From contig JAEHCQ010000011.1 in NCBI GenBank assembly GCA_020696385.1, forward strand, positions 1 to 14,149: 14,149 bases of DNA. The letters run 5' to 3'. Both the position numbers and the translations under genes were made by a program. The DNA is from Methanobacteriota archaeon. Lineage in GTDB: Archaea; Thermoplasmatota; Thermoplasmata; SG8-5; JAGLSY01. This document shows positions 3,101 through 14,149 of this stretch, piece by piece (within the stretch, counting starts at the first letter, position 1; every line of letters begins with the position of its first letter). Below the pieces are notes generated by a model. It was not told the origin of the DNA. It did no database searches and worked only from the letters and a program-made list of their open reading frames with translations.

Positions 3101-6034
3101 TCATTGCCGTATACTTTCAAGAGCCTTTTTCGTTCTTTCCGCCAGGATCTTCATCTCGGCTTTCTCGAAGACAGCCAGGGCATTTTGCAGATGATCCCTT
3201 GCCTTGTCCTTTTCTCCTCTTTGGGAATATGCATCTCCAAAGGCAAGATATGCCATCCCCAGTTTTCCTGGCTCGCCTATTTCTTTTGATAGCACGATTC
3301 CTTTTTCAAAGTGCTCTACAGCCCCAGTCCATTCATCCATTTTGAATAATAATGAGCCCATTATCGTATGTGTTGGCGCGGAAATATCTTTAAAATTATG
3401 CTCTTCAGCGATCTGGATGGCTTTCATGCAATGTCGCTGTGCGTCCTCCAGCTTTCCCAACTCGTACTCGGCCTCGCTTAGATTATTGAGCGCCTGGGCA
3501 ATGCCCCAAGTATCGTCTATCCTCTCCACGACACCCAGATACTTCTCATAATAAGATATCGCGGTCTCATAGTCCTCAAGATCAAAAAAGCAGGCACCCA
3601 GATTATTGTACGTATTGGCCATTCCACTCATATCGCCGATACGGTGTCTTATCTCCAGGCTCTTTTTGTTCATCTCGATCGCCTGTTCCAACTGGCCGGT
3701 CTTACGATATGTGGTGCCGACATTGATATAGGCCATGGCAACGCCTCTGACATCGCCGATCTTCTGCCTCAACTTTAGGCACTTCCCATAGCTGTCCAGT
3801 GCATCATCGAACCTGCCGACATTGTCATAGATGACGCCGAGATTATTGTAAGCATTGGTGATCCCCTGCTCGTAGCCGGATTCGAGCATGTACTTCCGCG
3901 CGCTTTCCCAGGCCTCGATGGTCTTTGGATAATCGCTCATATGCCAGTACACACCGCCCAGGTTCAGATAGGCCTGGGCGACCTCTTTATCATCGCCCAT
4001 CCTCTGGCTGGTATCAAGATAATTCTGCTGTATCTTCAATGCTTTATCGTATTCGCCCTTTCGCAGATACACCTTGCCAAGACCACCATAGGCCCCAGCC
4101 AGCAAAAGCTCATCCTTGGCCTCCTTGGCCTGCTGGATCGCACTTTCAAAGCTCTGAATTGACAGATCATATTCACCCTTGCTGAAGTATATGGATCCCA
4201 GGCTCTTGTCGATGCCAGCAATGAGAGAGCACTCGGTACATGCCTCGCGTGCTTTCTGTGATGCGGATATGGCCTCATCGTACATTCCATTCAATTCATA
4301 CAGACTGGCCAGTGTCGTATTGATGCCCTGGCCTCGTTCCTTTCTCACCCCGCTGATGCCTATCAGGCGAGACGCGTCTTCATAGAAAATTGCCGCTTCT
4401 TTCGGAGCATAATTATTGCTGGCCTTATCTCCAGCCTCAATGGAATAGTCAATGCCCTTATCGTATTCGCCAGTCTGGGAAAAGTGCCTGGCCAGTTTGA
4501 ACAATACGCTATCGATATCATATTCATACAGGAACTCGATGGATTCTCCCGCGATCCTATGCAGGACATTGTGCCACCTCTGGCTCAGATCGGAATATAT
4601 CGCTTCCTGGACCATGCCATGTCGGAAAGTATATTGCCCGTCTTCCATCCGAGATAGTAATTCTTTATCGCAGAGCTCATCCAGGATACCCCGCACCCTC
4701 TGGATGTCCATTTCCGCGCCCATGCTTATCACATGGGGGTCAAAGACAGTTCCCAGGACCGAGGCGAATTCTATCACATGGATGGTATCCAGGCTCATGA
4801 ATTCCAGTTGTTTGGATACAATGTCAGCGGCTGAAGAAGGGATCAATTCTGCATGATCGCTCTTGAATATCCAAAGACCATCCTCATTGAAGATCATCTT
4901 TTGAGCCAGCATTGTTCTCAATACCTCGATTATGAAAAATGGATTGCCACCTATCTCATCATGGATCATCTCTGCCAGGCCATCGGGAATATTCGAGCCG
5001 CCCAAAGTACTGGATATGATCGACCCAATATTTTCGAAGGATAGTCGATCCAGCTGTATTTCCTCAATTATGGATTCCTTCTTCATGGAATTGATCGTAT
5101 CGACAAGCAGGTCGGACATATTATCTGGCTCATAGGTGCAGCAAATCATCACACGCTTATCACGAAGATTTCTTGAAAGGTAAGGTATGGCCATCAAGGT
5201 CGCTTCATCGGCAAGGTGGATATCCTCAAGAAGAAGTATGAGTCCTTTTTCTGCCTTTCCTTCCAATACCTTCTGGACCTTCACCTGAGCTGCCAGTCTC
5301 TCCGCCTCGATGTTCATCGATTCCAATGTCCTTCTGACAGGATATCGATTATTGATCAGCTTGCCGAGCACATCACGGGTTCCGCTCACACTATCCAGAT
5401 CACCATCCCAATCGCGCAGGAGGTCTCCAAACTCAGCCTCGACATTGGCAAGCAGTTTGTTCAGATCGCCCCTCATACGAGGATGCTCCTCACCGGAAAC
5501 AACGCCAGCCAGGAACACGAAATCTCCGTGTTCCAGCAATACTTTTTTGTTTCTGTACTCCAGCCTGCCCAGGCCACCATCGATGGTCGGCATTTCCCCA
5601 TCGCCAAAGGAATCTTTAACAAAATCCTGGACCGCGGTGAGCATGGAGCTGAGAATGTCCTCATCAACACCTTCATCATCGGAACTGGATAGATGAGTTA
5701 TGAGAAGACCTACACGGCTTATCAAGAAAAGCTCATCAAAAGAATTCTGATCCTCAAGGCTGAGGGCTTCAGTATCTCCCAGAACAGCCAGTGCTTCCCT
5801 GAAGGGATTGTAGGGTTCCGAGCTTTCAGTGGAGGTGGCATGGCCGATAGTGGTGGTCACATCCTGGGAACGTGCCTCCTTCATGATGATATGAGCCAGG
5901 TTTGTTTTACCAAGACCAGCCTCACCGCCAATGAACACGGTCTGTCCATTGCCATTCGTCGAGCTGTCAAGCAATTTTCTAAGACGTGCCAGCTCATCTT
6001 CTCTTCCAATAATGCCAGTTGATACTTCCGCCAT
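3101..6034 (-). CDS. STAND/AAA_16-type ATPase with C-terminal TPR array
   Basis: 977 aa. IIGREDEL start, Walker A GEAGLGKT, Walker B LLLLEDIH, GNPFF motif, YTFRHGMVQEAIY, then many TPR-like repeats (AYNNLGVIY, AYINVGTTY, TYNNLGACF). Confidence 0.85.
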   Translation of the reverse strand: MAEVSTGIIGREDELARLRKLLDSSTNGNGQTVFIGGEAGLGKTNLAHIIMKEARSQDVTTTIGHATSTESSEPYNPFREALAVLGDTEALSLEDQNSFDELFLISRVGLLITHLSSSDDEGVDEDILSSMLTAVQDFVKDSFGDGEMPTIDGGLGRLEYRNKKVLLEHGDFVFLAGVVSGEEHPRMRGDLNKLLANVEAEFGDLLRDWDGDLDSVSGTRDVLGKLINNRYPVRRTLESMNIEAERLAAQVKVQKVLEGKAEKGLILLLEDIHLADEATLMAIPYLSRNLRDKRVMICCTYEPDNMSDLLVDTINSMKKESIIEEIQLDRLSFENIGSIISSTLGGSNIPDGLAEMIHDEIGGNPFFIIEVLRTMLAQKMIFNEDGLWIFKSDHAELIPSSAADIVSKQLEFMSLDTIHVIEFASVLGTVFDPHVISMGAEMDIQRVRGILDELCDKELLSRMEDGQYTFRHGMVQEAIYSDLSQRWHNVLHRIAGESIEFLYEYDIDSVLFKLARHFSQTGEYDKGIDYSIEAGDKASNNYAPKEAAIFYEDASRLIGISGVRKERGQGINTTLASLYELNGMYDEAISASQKAREACTECSLIAGIDKSLGSIYFSKGEYDLSIQSFESAIQQAKEAKDELLLAGAYGGLGKVYLRKGEYDKALKIQQNYLDTSQRMGDDKEVAQAYLNLGGVYWHMSDYPKTIEAWESARKYMLESGYEQGITNAYNNLGVIYDNVGRFDDALDSYGKCLKLRQKIGDVRGVAMAYINVGTTYRKTGQLEQAIEMNKKSLEIRHRIGDMSGMANTYNNLGACFFDLEDYETAISYYEKYLGVVERIDDTWGIAQALNNLSEAEYELGKLEDAQRHCMKAIQIAEEHNFKDISAPTHTIMGSLLFKMDEWTGAVEHFEKGIVLSKEIGEPGKLGMAYLAFGDAYSQRGEKDKARDHLQNALAVFEKAEMKILAERTKKALESIRQ

Positions 6035-8204: not shown

Positions 8205-8316
8205 ACAGATAATGATATGCCCAGGAGCCTATAAGTAGTTTTTCTAATGTTTCTCATAATGGATAGAATTATATTGAAATTAATTTGAAAATAACATGAA
8301 GATATCATAAATAATA

Positions 8317-8363
8317 TCAAAACATAATCAAAATATACTCAAAATATACTCAAAATATACTCA
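8317..8363. repeat. 11-bp intergenic tandem repeat (tcaaaatatac x3.3 plus one degenerate unit)
   Basis: Exact units at 8328, 8339 and 8350; degenerate tcaaaacataa at 8317. Confidence 0.9.
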
Positions 8364-9632: not shown

Positions 9633-9746
9633 TGTAAAATAGTAGTGAATGTTATTAATTGTATTAAAAAATAGAAAATCAAAAGAGCGACACTGCTTAT
9701 TTGACGAGGAGTGTCGCACATGTTCCAGAGTTTACCTACACACCCA

Positions 9747-9785
9747 AGAGTAACTACATGCCCCAGAGTAACTACATGCCCCAGA
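9747..9785. repeat. 18-bp tandem repeat (agagtaactacatgcccc x2.2) containing the infB stop codon
   Basis: Exact units at 9747 and 9765; degenerate relatives extend left to about 9717. Confidence 0.9.
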
Positions 9786-11583
9786 ACTTGTCTTCTTTTC
9801 TCTTGATCGTGCACACCTGCTCCATCACATCCAGCTCATCCGGATTGAGGTCAGAACTGTTCCTCAACTCTTTGCAGTGAGATGACATAATATCAACATA
9901 CAGAACATCATCCTCATCGATCTGGCGACCGCAAGTAGCACCATCTATCGCGACAGCAACCTCGGCACCAGCTATGGCTTCCTTCAGAGATTCATCACCA
10001 TCCCTGATGCTCTTGATCTTACCGATGACGCGACCATCCTCTCTCATGAGGCGCTGGCCGATCCTTATCCTGCCGGCCAGGATTCTTACGCCAACTATCG
10101 CGGGCTTGCTCAATCGGAACTGACAGTCAGGCAAGAGCAGTATCTTGCCAGGATAGACCTTGTCCAAACGGCTTTCAGCATCCAGCTCACGCTTTCTGAC
10201 CTCCAGCCATTCGTCATACTCTTCTATCAGGCGGTAAACGATATCCGCCTGGATGAATTTTAACTCGGAATTGAGAAGCTCTTCCTTCGCATCTGGAAGC
10301 AGATTTACATTGAAGCCAAACATCACACGCTTCAATGGATCATTTGTAGCAGCGGCCTCTATGATATCCCTCCTGGAGACATCACCAACTGCGGCCTTCT
10401 TTATCGGAATGTCAGCATTCTTCGCTTCATAGGCCATTGCTTCAAGGGATCCAATGGCATCCGCCTTTATCATGATGCCATCCTCCACCGTTTCGATGGT
10501 CAGTTGTGAACGGAGGCTTATCTCCTCTATCAGATCATCAAGATTTTCTTTACTGGCCACTCTCAGAGGACCACCAGCGATAACCCCTGTGATATCTTGG
10601 GCCACTAACTTGATACCTGCCGCGGCAGTTACACAATCCTGGGGGTTGAACCTCTCACGCGGATCACGTATCTCATCCAATGCCTTTGGCTTGAGTATGG
10701 CCTTGGCCTTGGTGACCATTGGCTTGCCGGATGTACCCAGCACGATAGTGTCGCCCTTCTTGATCTGGCCTTTGTAAAGAATGACATCCATTGTTGGTCC
10801 GAGACCTTTCTCCTCTTTTATCTCGAGGATGGTGCCCTCGCCCAGGCCAGTCTCATCGGTCCAAAGTTTCTTTTCCAGAAATCTCTGAGCCAGTCCAACC
10901 AGCATGAGCAGGATGTCCGGAACTCCCTCTCCAGTCTTGGCGCTCATCGGAATAAGTGCCAAATTCTTAGAGAAGTCCTCGATCTTATCATAACGATCTG
11001 CTGAAAATCCTTTATCATAAAGATGACCAACAATATTGTAGAATCTCTCATCCAGCAAGGCTTTGATATCTTTGTTCTGCTTCTTGAGAGATACAAGGAA
11101 TGGCTCATCCGGGTGATTGCGCCAGCCAGGCATTAGATCGATCTTATTGAGGGCGATTATGAAAGGTGTTTTCAATTGCTTGAGGATATTTATGGATTCA
11201 ATGGTTTGGGGCTTCAGCCCCTCATTTATATCAATAACAAGAACAGCCAGATCTGCCAGTGATCCACCCCTGGACCTAAGGGTTGTGAAGGAATGATGGC
11301 CAGGAGTGTCTATGAAAAGCAAGCCCGGAACACTGAATTTCTTTTCCCCGATAAGCGGCTTGCATATCTTGTAAACAACATCGATGGGAACCTCTGTGGC
11401 TCCAATATGCTGGGTAATGGCTCCAGCCTCACGTGATACGACAGCGGATCCCCTGATATAATCCAGCAAGCTGGTCTTACCATGATCCACATGACCCAGT
11501 ACACTGACTATGGGCTGGCGGATGATACCGCATTCTACGACTTCTGGATCAGATATTTCTGGATCCGATTTGGACTTTGCCAT
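9772..11583 (-). CDS. infB: Translation initiation factor IF-2 (archaeal aIF5B)
   Basis: RQPIVSVLGHVDHGKT, EAGAITQHIGA, FIDTPGH, NKID, SAKTGEG, IKADAIGSLEA motifs. Archaeal length (603 aa). GGTGG upstream. Confidence 0.97.
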   Translation of the reverse strand: MAKSKSDPEISDPEVVECGIIRQPIVSVLGHVDHGKTSLLDYIRGSAVVSREAGAITQHIGATEVPIDVVYKICKPLIGEKKFSVPGLLFIDTPGHHSFTTLRSRGGSLADLAVLVIDINEGLKPQTIESINILKQLKTPFIIALNKIDLMPGWRNHPDEPFLVSLKKQNKDIKALLDERFYNIVGHLYDKGFSADRYDKIEDFSKNLALIPMSAKTGEGVPDILLMLVGLAQRFLEKKLWTDETGLGEGTILEIKEEKGLGPTMDVILYKGQIKKGDTIVLGTSGKPMVTKAKAILKPKALDEIRDPRERFNPQDCVTAAAGIKLVAQDITGVIAGGPLRVASKENLDDLIEEISLRSQLTIETVEDGIMIKADAIGSLEAMAYEAKNADIPIKKAAVGDVSRRDIIEAAATNDPLKRVMFGFNVNLLPDAKEELLNSELKFIQADIVYRLIEEYDEWLEVRKRELDAESRLDKVYPGKILLLPDCQFRLSKPAIVGVRILAGRIRIGQRLMREDGRVIGKIKSIRDGDESLKEAIAGAEVAVAIDGATCGRQIDEDDVLYVDIMSSHCKELRNSSDLNPDELDVMEQVCTIKRKEDKFWGM

Positions 11584-11702
11584 TGAACCACCTAATCTAA
11601 AATGATATTAAAAGATTTCATAAGGTAGACCATAGCTGAGATCTGAGCCTAATCGCAGAGAAGGATATCTTAATGCGATCTGGCCATAACTACAAATATC
11701 CA

Positions 11703-12068
11703 TTAATGACAGCCATGTCCAGCGCATGCCTGTCCGGGTGTCATCTCTGTCAATTTACCATCGATGATGTTATGAACAGCATCCTTCACGGTCTGGCCAT
11801 CTAGCTTGAAGACCTTGATACCGCCCGCATTCAATTTCATGATCGCTCCGCGACCCATACCGCCAGTGATCACAATATCCACATTATGACCTTCCATTTG
11901 GCCAATTGGATTGCACGTGCCATGCTCATGGTGTTGATTTGAATTATCAACAGCTTCGAATTTCTCTGTCTCGGTATCATAGAAACCAAAGAAAGGCGCA
12001 CTTCCAAAGTGAGCATAGACTTTCGATCCCATTCCATCATCATTCATTATCGGCATGCAGATTTTCAT
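11703..12068 (-). CDS. NifB/NifX-family (dinitrogenase FeMo-cofactor-like domain) protein
   Basis: MKICMP...HFGSAPFF...VDIVITGGMGRGA...GIKVF; C-terminal ACAGHGCH. Confidence 0.85.
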   Translation of the reverse strand: MKICMPIMNDDGMGSKVYAHFGSAPFFGFYDTETEKFEAVDNSNQHHEHGTCNPIGQMEGHNVDIVITGGMGRGAIMKLNAGGIKVFKLDGQTVKDAVHNIIDGKLTEMTPGQACAGHGCH

Positions 12069-12111
12069 TGATACACATCCTAATGTTAACGGCGTTGAGA
12101 TACATGACCAG

Positions 12112-12121
12112 TATATATAAA
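12112..12121 (-). promoter_or_regulatory. Archaeal TATA box for the NifB/NifX-family gene
   Basis: TTTATATATA on the minus strand, about 45 bp upstream of the ATG at 12068. Confidence 0.55.
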
Positions 12122-12143
12122 TCTGCTTAACGATTGTAATTGT

Positions 12144-12203
12144 TCACGCCTTTATCATTATCAGCGACATTTTGAACTTGGTTATAGAATCAAGAGCATG
12201 TGG
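12144..12203 (-). repeat. Distal displaced copy of the cupin 3' end (19 codons + stop)
   Basis: Encodes PHALDSITKFKMSLIMIKA*, identical to the gene. 8 nucleotide differences from 12613-12672, all silent, including TAA->TGA. Confidence 0.92.
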
Positions 12204-12301
12204 CTGCGTTTTTTTCTTTTAAGGCCTTCTGTGCTGGCCAGGCTCCAAAAGAAAAAAATGCCGTTAAATAAGAAAACTCGCCTGGCATGCTCGAAGGCCA
12301 A
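12204..12301 (-). other. Structured repeat element, copy E3
   Basis: Outer stem ggccttc (12223-12229)/gaaggcc (12293-12299), inner stem gccaggc (12237-12243)/gcctggc (12280-12286). Highly similar to 13620-13711. Strand is inferred. Confidence 0.8.
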
Positions 12302-12304
12302 TAC

Positions 12305-12392
12305 GTGCTTACGCCTTTATCATTATCAGCGACATCTTGAATCTTGTTATAGAATCAAGAGCATGCGGTTTATTCGCTGGCATCATCAGCAT
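12305..12392 (-). repeat. Proximal displaced copy of the cupin 3' end (27 codons + stop + 4 nt)
   Basis: Encodes MLMMPANKPHALDSITRFKMSLIMIKA*. 9 differences from 12609-12696: 7 synonymous, plus L->M and K->R. Confidence 0.92.
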
Positions 12393-12605
12393 CCCCTCGG
12401 AAGCCTTTTCTTTTATTGATTTCTGCGCTAGCTCGGGCTCTTGAATCAAGCAAGCTTGACAAAATAGATGCGCAAAATCGCGCATCTAAAAAAGAACAAG
12501 GTTTCTAATATCGAATCAAGCCCATTTCATGTGCTTGATAAAATAGATGCATGGACTATGTCCACATCTAAAAAAGAAAAATCGCCCTCACCTGCTCGAA
12601 ATCAA
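12393..12605 (-). other. Structured repeat element, copy E2 (expanded by two double-hairpin modules)
   Basis: Outer stem ttgatttc (12416-12423)/gaaatcaa (12598-12605). Shares cccc.c.gaagccttttctttt, aaaagaacaaggtttctaat and tgctcgaa with E1. Confidence 0.78.
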
Positions 12606-12612
12606 AGTGTGC

Positions 12613-12951
12613 TTACGCCTTTATCATGATAAGCGACATCTTGAATTTGGTTATCGAATCAAGCGCATGCGGTTTATTTGCTGGCATCAGCAACATTTCG
12701 CCTTTCTTCACAATGAACTTCTCGCCATCAATAGTGATCTCAACTTCCCCATCGAGTATGTGCGCCAGTGCGTCATAAGGCGAAGTGTGCTCGCTCAGCC
12801 CTTGCCCCATGTCAAAGGCGAACAGTGTAATCATTCCCTGGTCCTTCTCGACCAGGGTTCTGCTCACAATAGAGCCATCCTGGTATTTCAGCATCTCTTC
12901 AAGGTTCCAGACCTCTGTATTTTCTCCCAATGTATCTACCTCCGGTTTCAA
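12613..12951 (-). CDS. Cupin domain protein
   Basis: YQDGSIVSRTL, TLFAFDMGQGLSEHTSPYDA, GEMLLMPANKPHAL. TTG start 2 nt after the HMA gene's stop. Confidence 0.9.
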   Translation of the reverse strand: MKPEVDTLGENTEVWNLEEMLKYQDGSIVSRTLVEKDQGMITLFAFDMGQGLSEHTSPYDALAHILDGEVEITIDGEKFIVKKGEMLLMPANKPHALDSITKFKMSLIMIKA

Positions 12952-12953
12952 AA

Positions 12954-13187
12954 TTATACTACAATGGCCTCATAGCCAGCTTCTCTCACGGTCTTGATAA
13001 GAGTGCCATTGGAAACTGCGTCTTCCTTTTTCAATGTGACAATAGCTTTCTTATCTTCAAGACTTACCTCGGCTTTCTTAACGCCAGATGTCTTTTCTAA
13101 AGCCTCTGTCACACGCTTCACGCAGTGTCCGCATGTCATTCCCTCTACCTTCATTTCAATTACTGGTTTCTTCCCAAACATACCCAT
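12954..13187 (-). CDS. Heavy-metal-associated (HMA, CopZ-like) chaperone
   Basis: VEGMTCGHCVKRV...EAGY; GGTGA upstream. Confidence 0.9.
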   Translation of the reverse strand: MGMFGKKPVIEMKVEGMTCGHCVKRVTEALEKTSGVKKAEVSLEDKKAIVTLKKEDAVSNGTLIKTVREAGYEAIVV

Positions 13188-13258
13188 TTACTTCACCATG
13201 ATGTAGAGAGTGTGGAGAGGGCTTAAAGGTATTCCCATTTTTTTGTTTTATAGAAAGA

Positions 13259-13477
13259 TTGACCTCCCCGCCCTTTGGACGGGGCTTCGAATATCAGAGC
13301 ACTCTGTGACTGTCACTCGAACATTCATTGAATATAGTACCCCGCCCGCACAAAGAGATGAATCAAATACTTCAATATGATTTAGTCAATAGCCGTATTA
13401 GATTTTCTGGTCGCGTACAATTGAACATATAATACGCTACCAGAAACACTGTGTTTAGACGGGGCATGCTCGAATGT
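13259..13477 (-). mobile_element. Putative non-autonomous IS200/IS605-end-like palindromic element
   Basis: Minus strand ends ...GAAGCCCCGTCC-AAA-GGGCGGGGAGGTCAA, a subterminal hairpin followed by TCAA as at IS608-type right ends. A second GCCCCGTC...GGGCGGGG arm pair lies at 13458-13465/13340-13347. No ORF. Family assignment is from resemblance only. Confidence 0.5.
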
Positions 13478-13496
13478 ATATGCTTTGTTGATAAAT

Positions 13497-13606
13497 GCAC
13501 TGCTCGAAGGTCAACCCCACTAGCTCAGTCCGACAATATTTCCATCAGCATCCATGTCAATGAATTCAGCCGCTGGCTTCCTCGGTAATCCTGGCATCGT
13601 CATTAT
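13497..13606 (-). repeat. Displaced copy of the fhs 3' end (28 codons + stop + 23 nt)
   Basis: 110-bp direct repeat of 13694-13803 (offset 197) with 5 mismatches (13583, 13586, 13588, 13589, 13592), all synonymous. Confidence 0.95.
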
Positions 13607-13711
13607 CCCCCCAGAAGCCTTTTCTTTTTGGACCTTCTCCGCTGGCCAGGCTCCAAAAGAACAAGGTTTCTAATCCAAAAGAAAACTCGCCTGGCACTGC
13701 TCGAAGGTCAA
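13607..13711 (-). other. Structured repeat element, copy E1
   Basis: Outer stem gaccttc (13631-13637)/gaaggtc (13703-13709), inner stem gccaggc (13645-13651)/gcctggc (13689-13695). Confidence 0.8.
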
Positions 13712-13716
13712 CCCCA

Positions 13717-14149
13717 CTAGCTCAGTCCGACAATATTTCCATCAGCATCCATGTCAATGAATTCAGCCGCTGGCTTCCTTGGAAGACCAGGCATCGTCAT
13801 TATTTCTCCGGCTATCGGAATAACAAAGCCAGCTCCAGCACTTAGACGAACCTGTCTGATGTACAGCTCGAAGCCTTCAGGTGCTCCCAGGAGCTTTTTA
13901 TTGTCAGAGAAAGAATACTGGGTCTTGGCAACGCACAATGGCAGATCACGGTATCCCATGGCCTCCCATTTTTTGATGTCCTTTTTGGCCTCAGGCGAGA
14001 AAACAACAGATTCCGCCCGATATATCTTCTTGGCCAGGATATTCATTTTTTCTTTAATTCCCATCTCCAGAGGATAGGCATAGTCTGGCTTCTTTTCGCC
14101 ACCCTTTGTCTTTGCCGTAATGGCTTCTGCAAGGGCCAGTCCTCCCTCC
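13717..14149 (-). CDS. fhs: Formate--tetrahydrofolate ligase, C-terminal part (5' end outside the window)
   Basis: [39 protein letters not shown] motifs. The frame stays open upstream of 14064 to the edge (EGGLALAEAITAK...YPLE). Confidence 0.95.
   Translation of the reverse strand, partial: EGGLALAEAITAKTKGGEKKPDYAYPLEMGIKEKMNILAKKIYRAESVVFSPEAKKDIKKWEAMGYRDLPLCVAKTQYSFSDNKKLLGAPEGFELYIRQVRLSAGAGFVIPIAGEIMTMPGLPRKPAAEFIDMDADGNIVGLS

What the first reader, a model, noticed from the sequence alone, without database searches (positions are those of the whole stretch)
12204..13711. Compensatory base changes show a conserved secondary structure in E1-E3
Seen: the outer stem changes sequence but keeps pairing: gaccttc/gaaggtc (E1), ggccttc/gaaggcc (E3), tgatttc/gaaatca (E2). 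The inner stem aggc/gcct (E1, E3) becomes gggc/gccc (E2). The unpaired or weakly paired tgctc next to the outer stem is invariant. E1 looks mosaic, with stems like E3 but its end and central loop like E2. Inference: selection acts on an RNA or ssDNA fold, and the family is larger than the three copies seen here.
Basis: seen in the sequence. Interest (0 to 1): 0.8.

Follow-up and report, generated by a model that had tools for sequence, protein, structure and literature searches.

The report
Structured mobile repeat behind archaeal genes
The three look-alike stretches are copies of an apparently undescribed, tightly folded, protein-free jumping element of seafloor archaea that lands just behind genes and leaves a spare copy of the gene's end, and whose stems change letters but always keep pairing.

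Summary
E1, E2 and E3 are 3 of about 37-44 copies in this 2.28-Mb archaeal genome. Related copies occur in 25 of 41 related genomes searched.

Two nested stems covary strongly. On an alignment not fitted to any structure, 84.6% of cells pair against 65.0% in shuffles, and 84 cells change on both sides against 26.8 (0 of 500 shuffles). With 85 distinct copies the figures are 88.3% against 65.7%. Rfam has no match.

New here:
- The 5' T-rich arm pairs with the first A-tract of the loop, and this third pairing also covaries.
- The second A-tract mirrors the first.
- The fixed mismatches read as tandem G.A pairs on the window's minus strand.

The element is insertion-polymorphic: a congeneric genome lacks E1-E3 and all the gene-end copies. 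In 26 of 34 full-length copies, long duplications of host DNA flank the element (17-232 nt in the 22 curated cases).

No mobilising enzyme was found. The genome has no RVT_1-type reverse transcriptase, its Y1 transposase is IS200-type and not REP-associated, and that gene is not linked to the element. The scan met the same gene-end-duplicating habit before on other DNA.

The parts
13611..13713 (-). E1, a short copy. On the + strand: arm 13615-13629; outer stem P1 13631-13637 / 13703-13709; inner stem P2 13641-13651 / 13689-13700; A-tract 1 at 13653-13671; A-tract 2 at 13677-13686. The strand given is the one I judge to fold.
   Evidence: (80 bits, E 3.7e-17)
12399..12606 (-). E2, a long copy. 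Arm 12400-12416; P1 12417-12423 / 12598-12604; P2 12427-12438 / 12584-12595, in the recurrent ctcgggc/gccctcac form. Two double-hairpin modules are nested in its loop.
   Evidence: (both halves found by nhmmer)
12203..12303 (-). E3, a short copy of another subfamily (arm gcgTTTTTTTCTTTT). P1 12223-12229 / 12293-12299; P2 12233-12243 / 12280-12290.
   Evidence: 88.7 bits
12439..12492 (.). Double-hairpin module nested in the E2 loop, first of two.
   Evidence: 9 blastn hits in the genome; most listed hits lie at coordinates of other long copies of the element. Folds at -17.8 kcal/mol.
12512..12575 (.). Double-hairpin module nested in the E2 loop, second of two.
   Evidence: 10 hits; folds at -19.8 kcal/mol.
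13694..13803 (-). Native 3' end of the formate-tetrahydrofolate ligase gene (stop codon 13717-13719), plus 8 nt of spacer and the last 15 nt of E1. This is the right-hand copy of the duplication.
   Evidence: (D2)
13497..13606 (-). Spare copy of the ligase gene end (105 of 110 identical), ending 9 nt before the E1 arm. It starts exactly at the foot of P2 (ctgctc...).
   Evidence: The congeneric genome G002 lacks it.
12609..12696 (-). Native 3' end of the cupin gene (stop codon 12613-12615), to the right of E2.
   Evidence: (D1)
12305..12392 (-). Spare copy of the cupin gene end between E3 and E2 (90% identical to the native end).
   Evidence: absent from G002
12140..12203 (-). Older spare copy of the cupin gene end, to the left of E3 (55 of 59 identical to the middle copy).
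   Evidence: G002 has a single copy here
9736..9771 (-). Two extra tandem 18-nt copies of the end of the aIF5B gene, stop codon included, with no element between them. In G002 an E3-type copy sits at this very site with a 21-nt duplication that starts at the stop codon.

Best explanation
E1-E3 are copies of one family of small, non-coding, non-autonomous mobile elements of an order of Thermoplasmata-type archaea.

SHOWN:
- The element is about 100 nt long, or up to about 230 nt when other hairpin modules sit in its loop.
- It has a 5' T-rich arm and an outer stem P1 of 7 positions. The centre of P1 is either Watson-Crick or the fixed TC/TC pair of mismatches.
- A fixed internal loop (TGY / TC) follows, then an inner stem P2 of 12 positions with one invariant T.T.
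- The loop holds two A-tracts.
- Stem letters differ from copy to copy, but pairing is kept.
- Copies are present or absent between congeneric genomes.
- Most copies sit with their 3' side against the end of a convergent gene or tRNA. Most are bracketed by a long, variable duplication of that gene end, with a unique filler of 0-54 nt.

INFERRED:
- The fold is the cis-acting signal of the element in single-stranded form. It most likely forms on the strand that is sense to the gene ending beside it (the window's minus strand).
- The element spreads by a copying process tied to DNA synthesis or repair at gene ends (template switching). A transposase making a fixed staggered cut is less likely.
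- Insertion is tolerated because the duplication keeps the gene whole and because the element carries oligo-T tracts, the archaeal stop signal for transcription, on both strands.
For: Family size and spread.

Covariation of P1 and P2. Fixed mismatches inside variable stems: T.T in 84 of 85 copies; the centre of P1 is TC/TC in 63 of 85 and Watson-Crick in 18 of 85.

Mobility:
- G002 carries the orthologous locus without E1, E2, E3 or any spare gene end.
- Of 15 G002 copies examined, 6 are shared with this genome and 4 face a clean empty site here. One faces a different, larger insert here, and 4 could not be placed.
- One further copy of this genome (C46:162753) faces an empty site in G002.

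Flanking duplication: the left-against-right flank score exceeds the 99th percentile of 1116 mismatched flank pairs in 26 of 34 full-length copies. In 22 of them, the host-derived left copy ends 0-13 nt before the arm.

Placement: in the ORF listing, a gene on the opposite strand ends within 50 nt of the element's 3' side in 18 of 44 copies. A same-strand gene starts that close in 3.

A synthesis or repair origin is suggested by four things:
- Duplication lengths vary (17-232 nt).
- The fillers are unique: 9 of 9 have no second copy in the genome.
- Three duplications end exactly at the foot of P2.
- Tandem gene-end copies occur with no element between them.

Strand: on the minus strand the fixed mismatches read as tandem 5'-GA/3'-AG, and the ctcgggc/gccctcac form reads as U.G plus tandem GA. 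As RNA, the minus-strand hairpin is predicted to be the more stable in 67 of 73 copies.

The host is an archaeon: its IF2-type factor matches archaeal aIF5B over its full length.
Against: - No enzyme or intermediate was identified.
- No RNA or DNA run holding the stretch could be listed, so nothing is known about transcription.
- Microhomology, which template switching predicts at the inner junction, was not found: an arm-like patch next to the target scored p <= 0.05 in only 2 of 22 cases.
- Orientation towards neighbouring genes is a bias, not a rule (made with a crude ORF caller).
- The stability difference between strands vanishes with DNA energy parameters (43 of 73) and may reflect base composition.
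- G.T pairs (14) and A.C pairs (48) are both rare against 1249 Watson-Crick cells. That fits DNA as well as RNA. In two subfamilies the arm-to-loop pairing holds a G.T that would be A.C on the minus strand.
- This account does not explain the arm-to-loop pairing or the mirror A-tracts.
- The terminator role is inferred from T-tracts alone.
Confidence: 0.5

Rival explanations
1. The element works as RNA in the 3' untranslated part of the gene it follows (minus strand). The stems carry a U-rich loop with two oligo-U tracts that clamp the element's own A-rich tail into a U.A-U / C+.G-C triple helix, as ENE and MALAT1 elements do. This shields the 3' end from exonucleases.
For: The arm (the tail on the minus strand) is complementary to A-tract 1. 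Duplex energy is -13.9 kcal/mol with a copy's own partner against -8.9 with other copies' partners (0 of 5000 permutations).

The position of the single G/C agrees across tracts. It agrees between arm and A-tract 1 in 65 of 81 copies. A-tract 2 holds it in mirror order in 49 of 81 (0 of 10000 permutations; diagonal counts 12, 27 and 10 for registers 3, 4 and 5). A Hoogsteen strand needs exactly that mirror order.

Tandem GA pairs close the stems on this strand. The minus strand is the more stable as RNA.

The 2026 review of RNA triple helices, in the passages I read, lists such 3'-end elements only for viruses, eukaryotic long non-coding RNAs and plant and fungal transposons.
Against: - With P1 and P2 both formed, the tail starts at the base of a roughly 20-position stem with a 1-nt linker. 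It cannot reach the loop, so P1, which itself covaries, would have to open.
- The two oligo-U tracts are archaeal stop signals that lie before the tail. Many transcripts should therefore end without it, and nothing defines an RNA end after the tail.
- The element has no promoter of its own.
- The register changes trace to few independent events: about 20 arm types but only three registers.
- Mirror purine tracts also define H-DNA in double-stranded DNA.
- No expression data are available.
Confidence: 0.15
2. The folded single DNA strand is the substrate of the genome's HUH (Y1) transposase acting in trans, as with REP/REPIN and RAYT or with palindrome-associated elements of IS200/IS605. The invariant T.T and the fixed loop letters would be the protein's handles.
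For: The genome has exactly one Y1 transposase gene. Among the 22 genomes of the order (G000 included), 16 have a match to the family (11 with one match, 5 with two or three). The 6 without are 59-83% complete.

Invariant unpaired letters beside hypervariable stems are typical of hairpins read by such enzymes; that point rests on recalled knowledge of IS608 and attC.

Three duplications break at one and the same point, 5' of CTGCTC at the foot of P2.
Against: - The protein is an IS200/IS605 equivalog (119.5 bits) and fails the REP-associated model (28.2 bits against a cut-off of 80).
- The element lies within 1.5 kb of the Y1 gene in 1 of 20 loci examined, that of this genome only.
- Two genomes that are 91-94% complete carry 5-8 copies of the element but no Y1 gene, and five genomes without the element have Y1 genes.
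- From recalled knowledge, this enzyme family inserts without any target duplication. Here duplications of 17-232 nt are the rule.
Confidence: 0.13
3. The element moves in and out by the host's homologous recombination. Crossing-over between the two gene-end copies loops out a small circle holding the element, the filler and one gene end. That circle re-enters the same gene in another chromosome copy or cell, Campbell-style.
For: The layout 'gene end - element - filler - gene end' is what a single crossover with such a circle gives.

At one orthologous site the two gene-end copies are 100% identical within each genome (60 of 60 and 42 of 42), while the segment differs by about a quarter between the genomes. 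That shows ongoing exchange between the copies.

The half of the duplication next to the element is the more alike in 16 of 21 cases, although the way the alignment was made can bias this.
Against: - It does not explain how the element first reaches a new gene.
- It predicts that the filler is a donor's native intergenic DNA. For C46:162753 the filler resembles none of the native upstream regions, which are alike in four genomes of the genus.
- The fillers have no second copy in the genome.
Confidence: 0.08
4. It is a SINE-like retroelement: an RNA with an A-rich 3' tail is copied into nicked target DNA, which gives target duplications of variable length.
For: Target duplications of variable length. 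An A-rich 3' end on the minus strand. Partial copies exist.
Against: No RVT_1 reverse transcriptase was found in this 94.5%-complete genome (0 matches, while the control genomes rang). Partial copies lack either end, not only the 5' end. No T-rich priming site lies at the junction.
Confidence: 0.04
5. There is no selection on a fold. The stems stay complementary because inverted repeats in DNA correct each other (templated mutation, gene conversion) and because the copies descend from a few different masters.
For: Wobble intermediates are very rare: 14 G.T in 1431 cells. Clear subfamilies and mosaics exist. Related sequences can beat shuffles without any structure, a caveat of the tool used.
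Against: - Self-correction would erase mismatches. Yet T.T (84 of 85) and TC/TC (63 of 85) persist inside stems that otherwise vary.
- Controls that keep relatedness, by sliding the partner, fall to 24-52% paired.
- Orthologous copies in two genomes differ by three double, pair-keeping changes.
- The mirror relation of the A-tracts cannot arise from direct or inverted repeat conversion.
Confidence: 0.05

Closest known systems
REP / REPIN elements mobilised by RAYT transposases (bacteria)
   Same: Short, dispersed, intergenic, protein-free hairpins in tens of copies. The fold is conserved while stem letters vary. A single-copy HUH transposase gene is present in the genome.
   Different: The Y1 protein here is IS200-type and not RAYT, and it is not flanked by the element (1 of 20 loci). 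The element is longer, with two stems, an arm and A-tracts, and it is bracketed by long duplications. From recall, REPs have no such duplications.
MITEs (miniature inverted-repeat transposable elements)
   Same: Small, non-autonomous, insertion-polymorphic and flanked by direct repeats of the target.
   Different: There are no terminal inverted repeats: the arm extends about 20 nt beyond the outer stem on one side only. No parent insertion sequence with the same ends was found. The target duplication is long and variable (17-232 nt) where MITEs have a short, fixed one.
Integron attC sites
   Same: They are recognised as a folded single strand. The sequence varies freely while the structure and a few unpaired bases are fixed. 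They can stack in arrays.
   Different: The copies read here show no GTTRRRY / RYYYAAC core sites. There are no gene cassettes between copies; what lies between is a partial gene end. No integron integrase was looked for next to them.
ENE / MALAT1-type 3'-end triple helices, including those of plant and fungal transposon RNAs
   Same: On the minus strand the order is stem, U-tract, middle, U-tract, stem, A-rich tail. One U-tract is the Watson-Crick complement of the tail and the other is its parallel (mirror) match, C opposite G included.
   Different: The host is an archaeon without poly(A) tails. The lower stem is about 20 positions long with almost no linker. The U-tracts are themselves stop signals. 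Formation of a triple helix is not shown.
Small hairpin repeats that duplicate gene ends, noted earlier by this scan in other archaea (same genome: e1-5102653, e1-5102655; other genomes: e1-1902577, e1-3073912, e1-942903)
   Same: A protein-free folded repeat sits right behind a stop codon or tRNA end and is bracketed by a spare copy of the gene end of variable length.
   Different: It is a different sequence family: a look-up by sequence found no look-alike. This is the first of them with a large multi-genome covariation test, a third pairing and mirror tracts. Those notes are unchecked AI notes.

Membership tests
REP/REPIN-RAYT | A REP-associated tyrosine transposase (RAYT) gene in the genome | tested here: not met
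   The only Y1 protein scores 119.5 bits on the IS200/IS605 equivalog and 28.2 bits on the REP_Tyr_transpos model (cut-off 80).
REP/REPIN-RAYT | The transposase gene is flanked by copies of the repeat | tested here: not met
   The model finds the element within about 1.5 kb of the Y1 gene in 1 of 20 loci from 20 genomes.
MITE | Terminal inverted repeats at both ends | tested here: not met
   The 5' end is the T-rich arm and the 3' end is the outer-stem half. They are not complementary; the arm pairs with the loop instead.
MITE | Short target duplication of fixed length | tested here: not met
   17-232 nt across 22 host-derived duplications.
MITE | An autonomous parent element with the same ends | not tested
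   No pair of ends enclosing a gene turned up among the nhmmer hits, but no dedicated search was made.
Integron attC | R''/R' core sites (RYYYAAC ... GTTRRRY) | tested here: not met
   Not present at the ends of the aligned copies as read. The motif itself is recalled.
Integron attC | An integron integrase and attI next to an array of cassettes | not tested
   Four Phage_integrase matches exist in the genome. None lies in the window, and their neighbourhoods were not examined.
SINE / target-primed retroelement | A reverse transcriptase available in the cell | tested here: not met
   RVT_1: 0 matches in the 94.5%-complete genome, while control genomes rang. Other reverse-transcriptase families were not searched.
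SINE / target-primed retroelement | Variable target duplication and an A-rich 3' end | tested here: met
   on the minus strand.
ENE-type triple helix | Two U-rich strands facing each other between stems, plus an A-rich tract downstream | tested here: met
   Order of parts on the minus strand.
ENE-type triple helix | One U-strand antiparallel-complementary and the other parallel-matched to the A-tract | tested here: inconclusive
   Registers agree in 65 of 81 copies (Watson-Crick) and 49 of 81 (mirror), with 0 of 10000 permutations. Only three registers occur and few independent changes, and H-DNA would give the same pattern.
ENE-type triple helix | The triple helix forms and stabilises the RNA | not testable with these tools
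   Needs probing, melting and decay assays.
Any Rfam family | A match to a curated covariance model | tested here: not met
   0 matches at E <= 1 in the whole window, both strands.

The most novel reading that the evidence does not exclude
The element is built to form a pyrimidine-motif triple helix. Its two oligo-pyrimidine tracts and one oligo-purine tract keep Watson-Crick register in one pair and mirror (Hoogsteen) register in the other, across subfamilies and across an order of archaea. If this forms in RNA, it would be the first ENE/MALAT1-like 3'-end clamp outside eukaryotes and their viruses, carried by a mobile element that installs it behind host genes. If it forms in DNA (an H-DNA-like fold plus a cruciform), the element would spread by stalling replication and provoking template switching. 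That would also explain the long gene-end duplications seen with unrelated hairpin repeats in other archaea.
Probability: 0.2. Interest if true: 0.9.

Novelty: new variant of a known kind. Interest (0 to 1): 0.7.

Why it matters
Small structured repeats such as REP, MITE and attC are well known in bacteria. This archaeal family combines features that none of them has:
- three covarying pairings;
- fixed non-canonical pairs that point to one strand;
- mirror purine tracts;
- insertion right behind genes and tRNAs;
- long, variable duplications that keep the host gene whole;
- no recognisable enzyme of its own.

The family is conserved across a whole order of uncultured sediment archaea, yet it turns over between species of one genus. 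Something therefore keeps moving it.

Working out how it moves could reveal a way of DNA mobility, or of repair-driven copying, that is particular to archaea. The scan has met the same footprint with unrelated repeats in other archaeal groups.

In practice these copies create pseudo gene ends and duplicated tRNA ends that mislead gene callers, and they break assemblies.

Tried and rejected
- **Rfam:** the whole window, both strands, E <= 1, gave 0 matches.
- **Public sequencing runs** for window 11600-14149: none was listed.
- **Pattern scan of genome contigs** with a 15-base motif: 120 rows, seemingly chance hits, nearly all in unrelated bacteria. The pattern was too short and the scan was wasted.
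- **The search for related loci in metagenome contigs** with the N-terminus of the displaced C46 gene: no relative found.
- **Reverse transcriptase (RVT_1):** none found.
- **RAYT reading:** failed.
- **Arm-like microhomology** next to the inner edge of the target: not enriched (2 of 22 at p <= 0.05; combined p 0.63).
- **Filler as a donor strain's native intergenic DNA:** not supported for the one case tested. The fillers are unique in the genome.
- **The outer-stem 3' half as target DNA and not element:** rejected, because empty sites lack it.
- **By eye only:**
  - no C/D boxes;
  - no bulge-helix-bulge motif, because the 2-nt and 3-nt loop strands face each other where the motif needs them 4 bp apart;
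  - no standard K-turn, because no 3-nt bulge lies next to the tandem GA.
- **Diversity-generating retroelement** for the 110-nt gene-end pair: the 5 differences are not adenine-specific.
- **Literature:** searches found no description of this family.
  - I read passages of PMC6009581, on MITE-like C/D sRNAs in Pyrobaculum; these sit far from genes and no gene-end duplication is reported.
  - I also read passages of PMC13541005, the triple-helix review.
- **Look-up of earlier scan notes by sequence:** no look-alike.
Full report
**What is in the window**

The genes next to the elements lie on the minus strand:
- the end of a formate-tetrahydrofolate ligase gene (13717-14149);
- a heavy-metal-associated domain protein (12954-13187);
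- a cupin (12613-12951);
- a dinitrogenase FeMo-cofactor-family protein (11703-12068);
- an aIF5B translation factor (9772-11583).

The aIF5B matches archaeal aIF5B structures over its full length, and bacterial IF2 only in the GTPase domain. The host is therefore an archaeon. Earlier notes of this scan call it an uncultured marine-sediment Thermoplasmata archaeon; I did not check that name.

**Family size**

- blastn with E1 finds 38 matches in the window's own 2.28-Mb, 50-contig genome.
- A profile built from 19 short copies finds 62 hits. At E < 0.01 these merge into 44 elements, 34 of them full-length.
- A covariance model (R1) finds 37 matches at E <= 0.01.
- R1 finds matches in 25 of 41 related genomes. 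That includes all 4 other genomes of the family, 20 of 21 other genomes of the order, and 4 of 19 genomes from other families of the class.
- Rfam has nothing at E <= 1.

**Architecture, on the window's plus strand**

- A 5' arm, of the form (C)CGGAAGCC-TTTTCTTTT in one subfamily.
- The outer stem half, P1.
- The letters TGY.
- The inner stem half, P2, which starts GC-T-GG and is followed by 6-7 variable letters.
- A loop with two A-tracts, of the kind CCAAAAGAA...CAAAAGAAAACTC.
- The second half of P2, ending CC-T-GC.
- The letters TC.
- The second half of P1.

At least five subfamilies differ in arm and loop. Long copies such as E2 carry one or two double-hairpin modules in the loop. Most listed hits of those modules lie at coordinates of other long copies of this element. 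At one orthologous site, G002 has the short form and this genome the long form.

**Covariation**

| Alignment | Paired cells | Shuffled | Cells changed on both sides | Shuffled | Partner slid 1-3 columns |
|---|---|---|---|---|---|
| A1: MAFFT, 25 short copies, not fitted | 84.6% | 65.0 +/- 1.4 | 84 | 26.8 | 24-52% paired |
| A2: model-fitted, 88 matches, 85 distinct, >20 genomes | 88.3% | 65.7 +/- 0.8 | 337 | 111 | not given |

No shuffle out of 500 reached the observed values in either test.

- RNAalifold alone finds 13 pairs, 10 of them with compensatory changes.
- In A2, 14 of the 17 pairs show a change on both sides.
- The middle of P2 alternates between G-C, C-G, A-U and U-A in near-equal numbers.
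- Orthologous copies in this genome and in G002 differ by three double, pair-keeping changes.
- One orthologue has a swapped half-stem that breaks the pairing, so mosaics arise.

**Fixed oddities and the strand**

- The T.T mismatch inside P2 is present in 84 of 85 copies.
- The 2x2 centre of P1 is TC/TC in 63 of 85 and Watson-Crick in 18 of 85.
- The junction letters TGY/TC are fixed.

On the minus strand, TC/TC reads as tandem 5'-GA-3'/3'-AG-5'. From recalled thermodynamics this motif is stable and can stand in for two base pairs. The recurrent inner-stem form ctcgggc/gccctcac reads there as U.G plus tandem GA, and the loop-closing letters TCC/CTC read as GAG/GGA.

As RNA, the minus-strand hairpin is predicted to be the more stable in 67 of 73 short copies (-26.3 against -22.6 kcal/mol). 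With DNA parameters the strands are equal. Base composition may contribute to the RNA difference.

G.T cells (14) and A.C cells (48) are both rare beside 1249 Watson-Crick cells. Most of the A.C cells come from the one recurrent form.

I therefore favour the minus strand, which is sense to the adjacent gene. I cannot tell RNA from single-stranded DNA.

**A third pairing and mirror tracts**

- The arm is complementary to the first A-tract of the loop, and the two change together between subfamilies.
- Duplex energy is -13.9 kcal/mol with a copy's own partner and -8.9 with other copies' partners (0 of 5000 permutations; 74 copies, about 20 arm types).
- Beyond the homopolymer part, the pairing shows true compensatory changes such as GGAA/TTCC against GTAA/TTAC and CCG/TGG against GCG/TGC.
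- The number of T after the C in the arm equals the number of A before the G in tract 1 in 65 of 81 copies.
- It equals the number of A after the G in tract 2 in 49 of 81 copies (0 of 10000 permutations; diagonal counts 12, 27 and 10 for registers 3, 4 and 5).

Tract 2 is thus the mirror image of tract 1. Neither direct nor inverted repeat copying produces that. A pyrimidine-motif triple helix requires it, whether on the minus strand or as H-DNA.

There are limits. The three pairings cannot all form at once, because the arm is joined to P1 by about 1 nt. Only a few independent register changes underlie the statistics.

**Mobility and footprint**

G002, of the same genus, holds the orthologous locus at 81-92% identity. 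It has one cupin gene end, one ligase gene end, and no E1, E2 or E3. It also lacks the two other repeat families at 13243-13496.

In the other direction, 15 copies in G002 were examined:

| Outcome in this genome | Copies |
|---|---|
| Shared at the orthologous site | 6 |
| Clean empty site | 4 |
| A different, larger insert | 1 |
| Could not be placed | 4 |

One of the empty sites is window 9749-9771. One more copy of this genome faces an empty site in G002.

The flanks of 26 of 34 full-length copies match each other better than the 99th percentile of 1116 mismatched flank pairs. In 22 of them the repeat is host DNA of 17-232 nt. Its left copy ends 0-13 nt before the arm, and its right copy starts between -15 and +54 nt from the element's 3' end.

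Empty sites show that the insert is the element plus a filler on its 3' side. The 9 fillers I tested have no second copy in the genome.

The outer edge of the duplication lies within 3 nt of an open-reading-frame boundary in 8 of 15 protein-gene cases. I read these by eye, and I have no sound null model for that count:
- Seven of the eight are at stop codons.
- One is exactly at a start codon. There the 37-nt filler carries GGAGGT 5 nt before the ATG.

Behind tRNA genes the duplication runs a few bases past the tRNA end.

In three cases, E1 among them, the duplication starts exactly at the foot of P2 and includes the last 15 nt of the element.

Window 9736-9771 holds two extra tandem copies of the aIF5B gene end with no element between them.

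At one shared site the two gene-end copies are identical within each genome but diverged between the genomes.

**Who moves it?**

- No RVT_1 reverse transcriptase was found.
- The genome has one Y1 transposase. It is an IS200/IS605 equivalog and not REP-associated.
- The element lies next to that gene only in this genome, 1 of 20 loci.
- Co-occurrence across 41 genomes is weak and confounded by kinship.
- Four tyrosine-recombinase matches exist; I did not follow them up.

**Reading**

My best account is this. The element is non-autonomous and mobile. Its single-stranded fold is its cis signal. It is copied into gene ends by a synthesis- or repair-linked process that leaves a spare gene end and a filler. 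It is tolerated because the gene stays whole and because oligo-T tracts on both strands can end transcription. The last two steps are inferred.

The boldest reading not excluded is that the three tracts form a triple helix, in RNA (ENE-like) or in DNA.

**Prior art**

Four literature searches and passages of two papers gave no description of the family. The scan has noted the same footprint with other repeats, in this genome and in other archaea. Those are unchecked notes and do not count as support.

Noticed in passing
window 13243-13350: Another dispersed repeat family, with a GC-rich hairpin (ccccgccc...ggacgggg). 29 blastn hits in this genome and many in G001-G003. It is absent from the orthologous G002 locus.
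   Followed up: partly
window 13355-13496: A further repeat. A 115-nt stretch is 100% identical to G000:C48:120276-120390. Its end (gcatgctcgaatgt) resembles the 3' end of the element studied here.
   Followed up: partly
window 9736-9771: Two extra tandem 18-nt copies of the last codons plus stop codon of the aIF5B gene, with no insert between them. G002 has an element exactly there.
   Followed up: partly
window 8309-8363: Four overlapping copies of a 22-nt repeat spaced 11 nt apart (AAATATACTCA-like units) in an intergenic stretch.
   Followed up: no
window 3477-3865: A 29-nt motif recurs at spacings of 120 and 240 nt inside the 977-residue reading frame 3101-6034 (minus strand). This suggests a protein with 40-residue repeats.
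   Followed up: no
G000:C50:1231-2396 (L031, L013): Two tRNA-Phe genes (1231-1318 and 1710-1796), each followed by about 160 nt of shared sequence, bracket a long copy of the element. The element's left flank repeats 28 nt of the 3' part of the genome's only IS200-type transposase gene.
   Followed up: partly
G000:C11:492443-492731 and G002 locus L105: Here the element's T-rich arm directly follows the 3' end of a tRNA gene on the same strand, so the arm could serve as that tRNA's stop signal. The G000 copy has a 64-nt module in the loop and a swapped, non-pairing inner-stem half.
   Followed up: partly
G000:C47:27143-27602 (L046): Three copies of the element in tandem, each separated by a copy of the start of the neighbouring gene. 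This is a stack like the E3-E2 stack behind the cupin gene.
   Followed up: no
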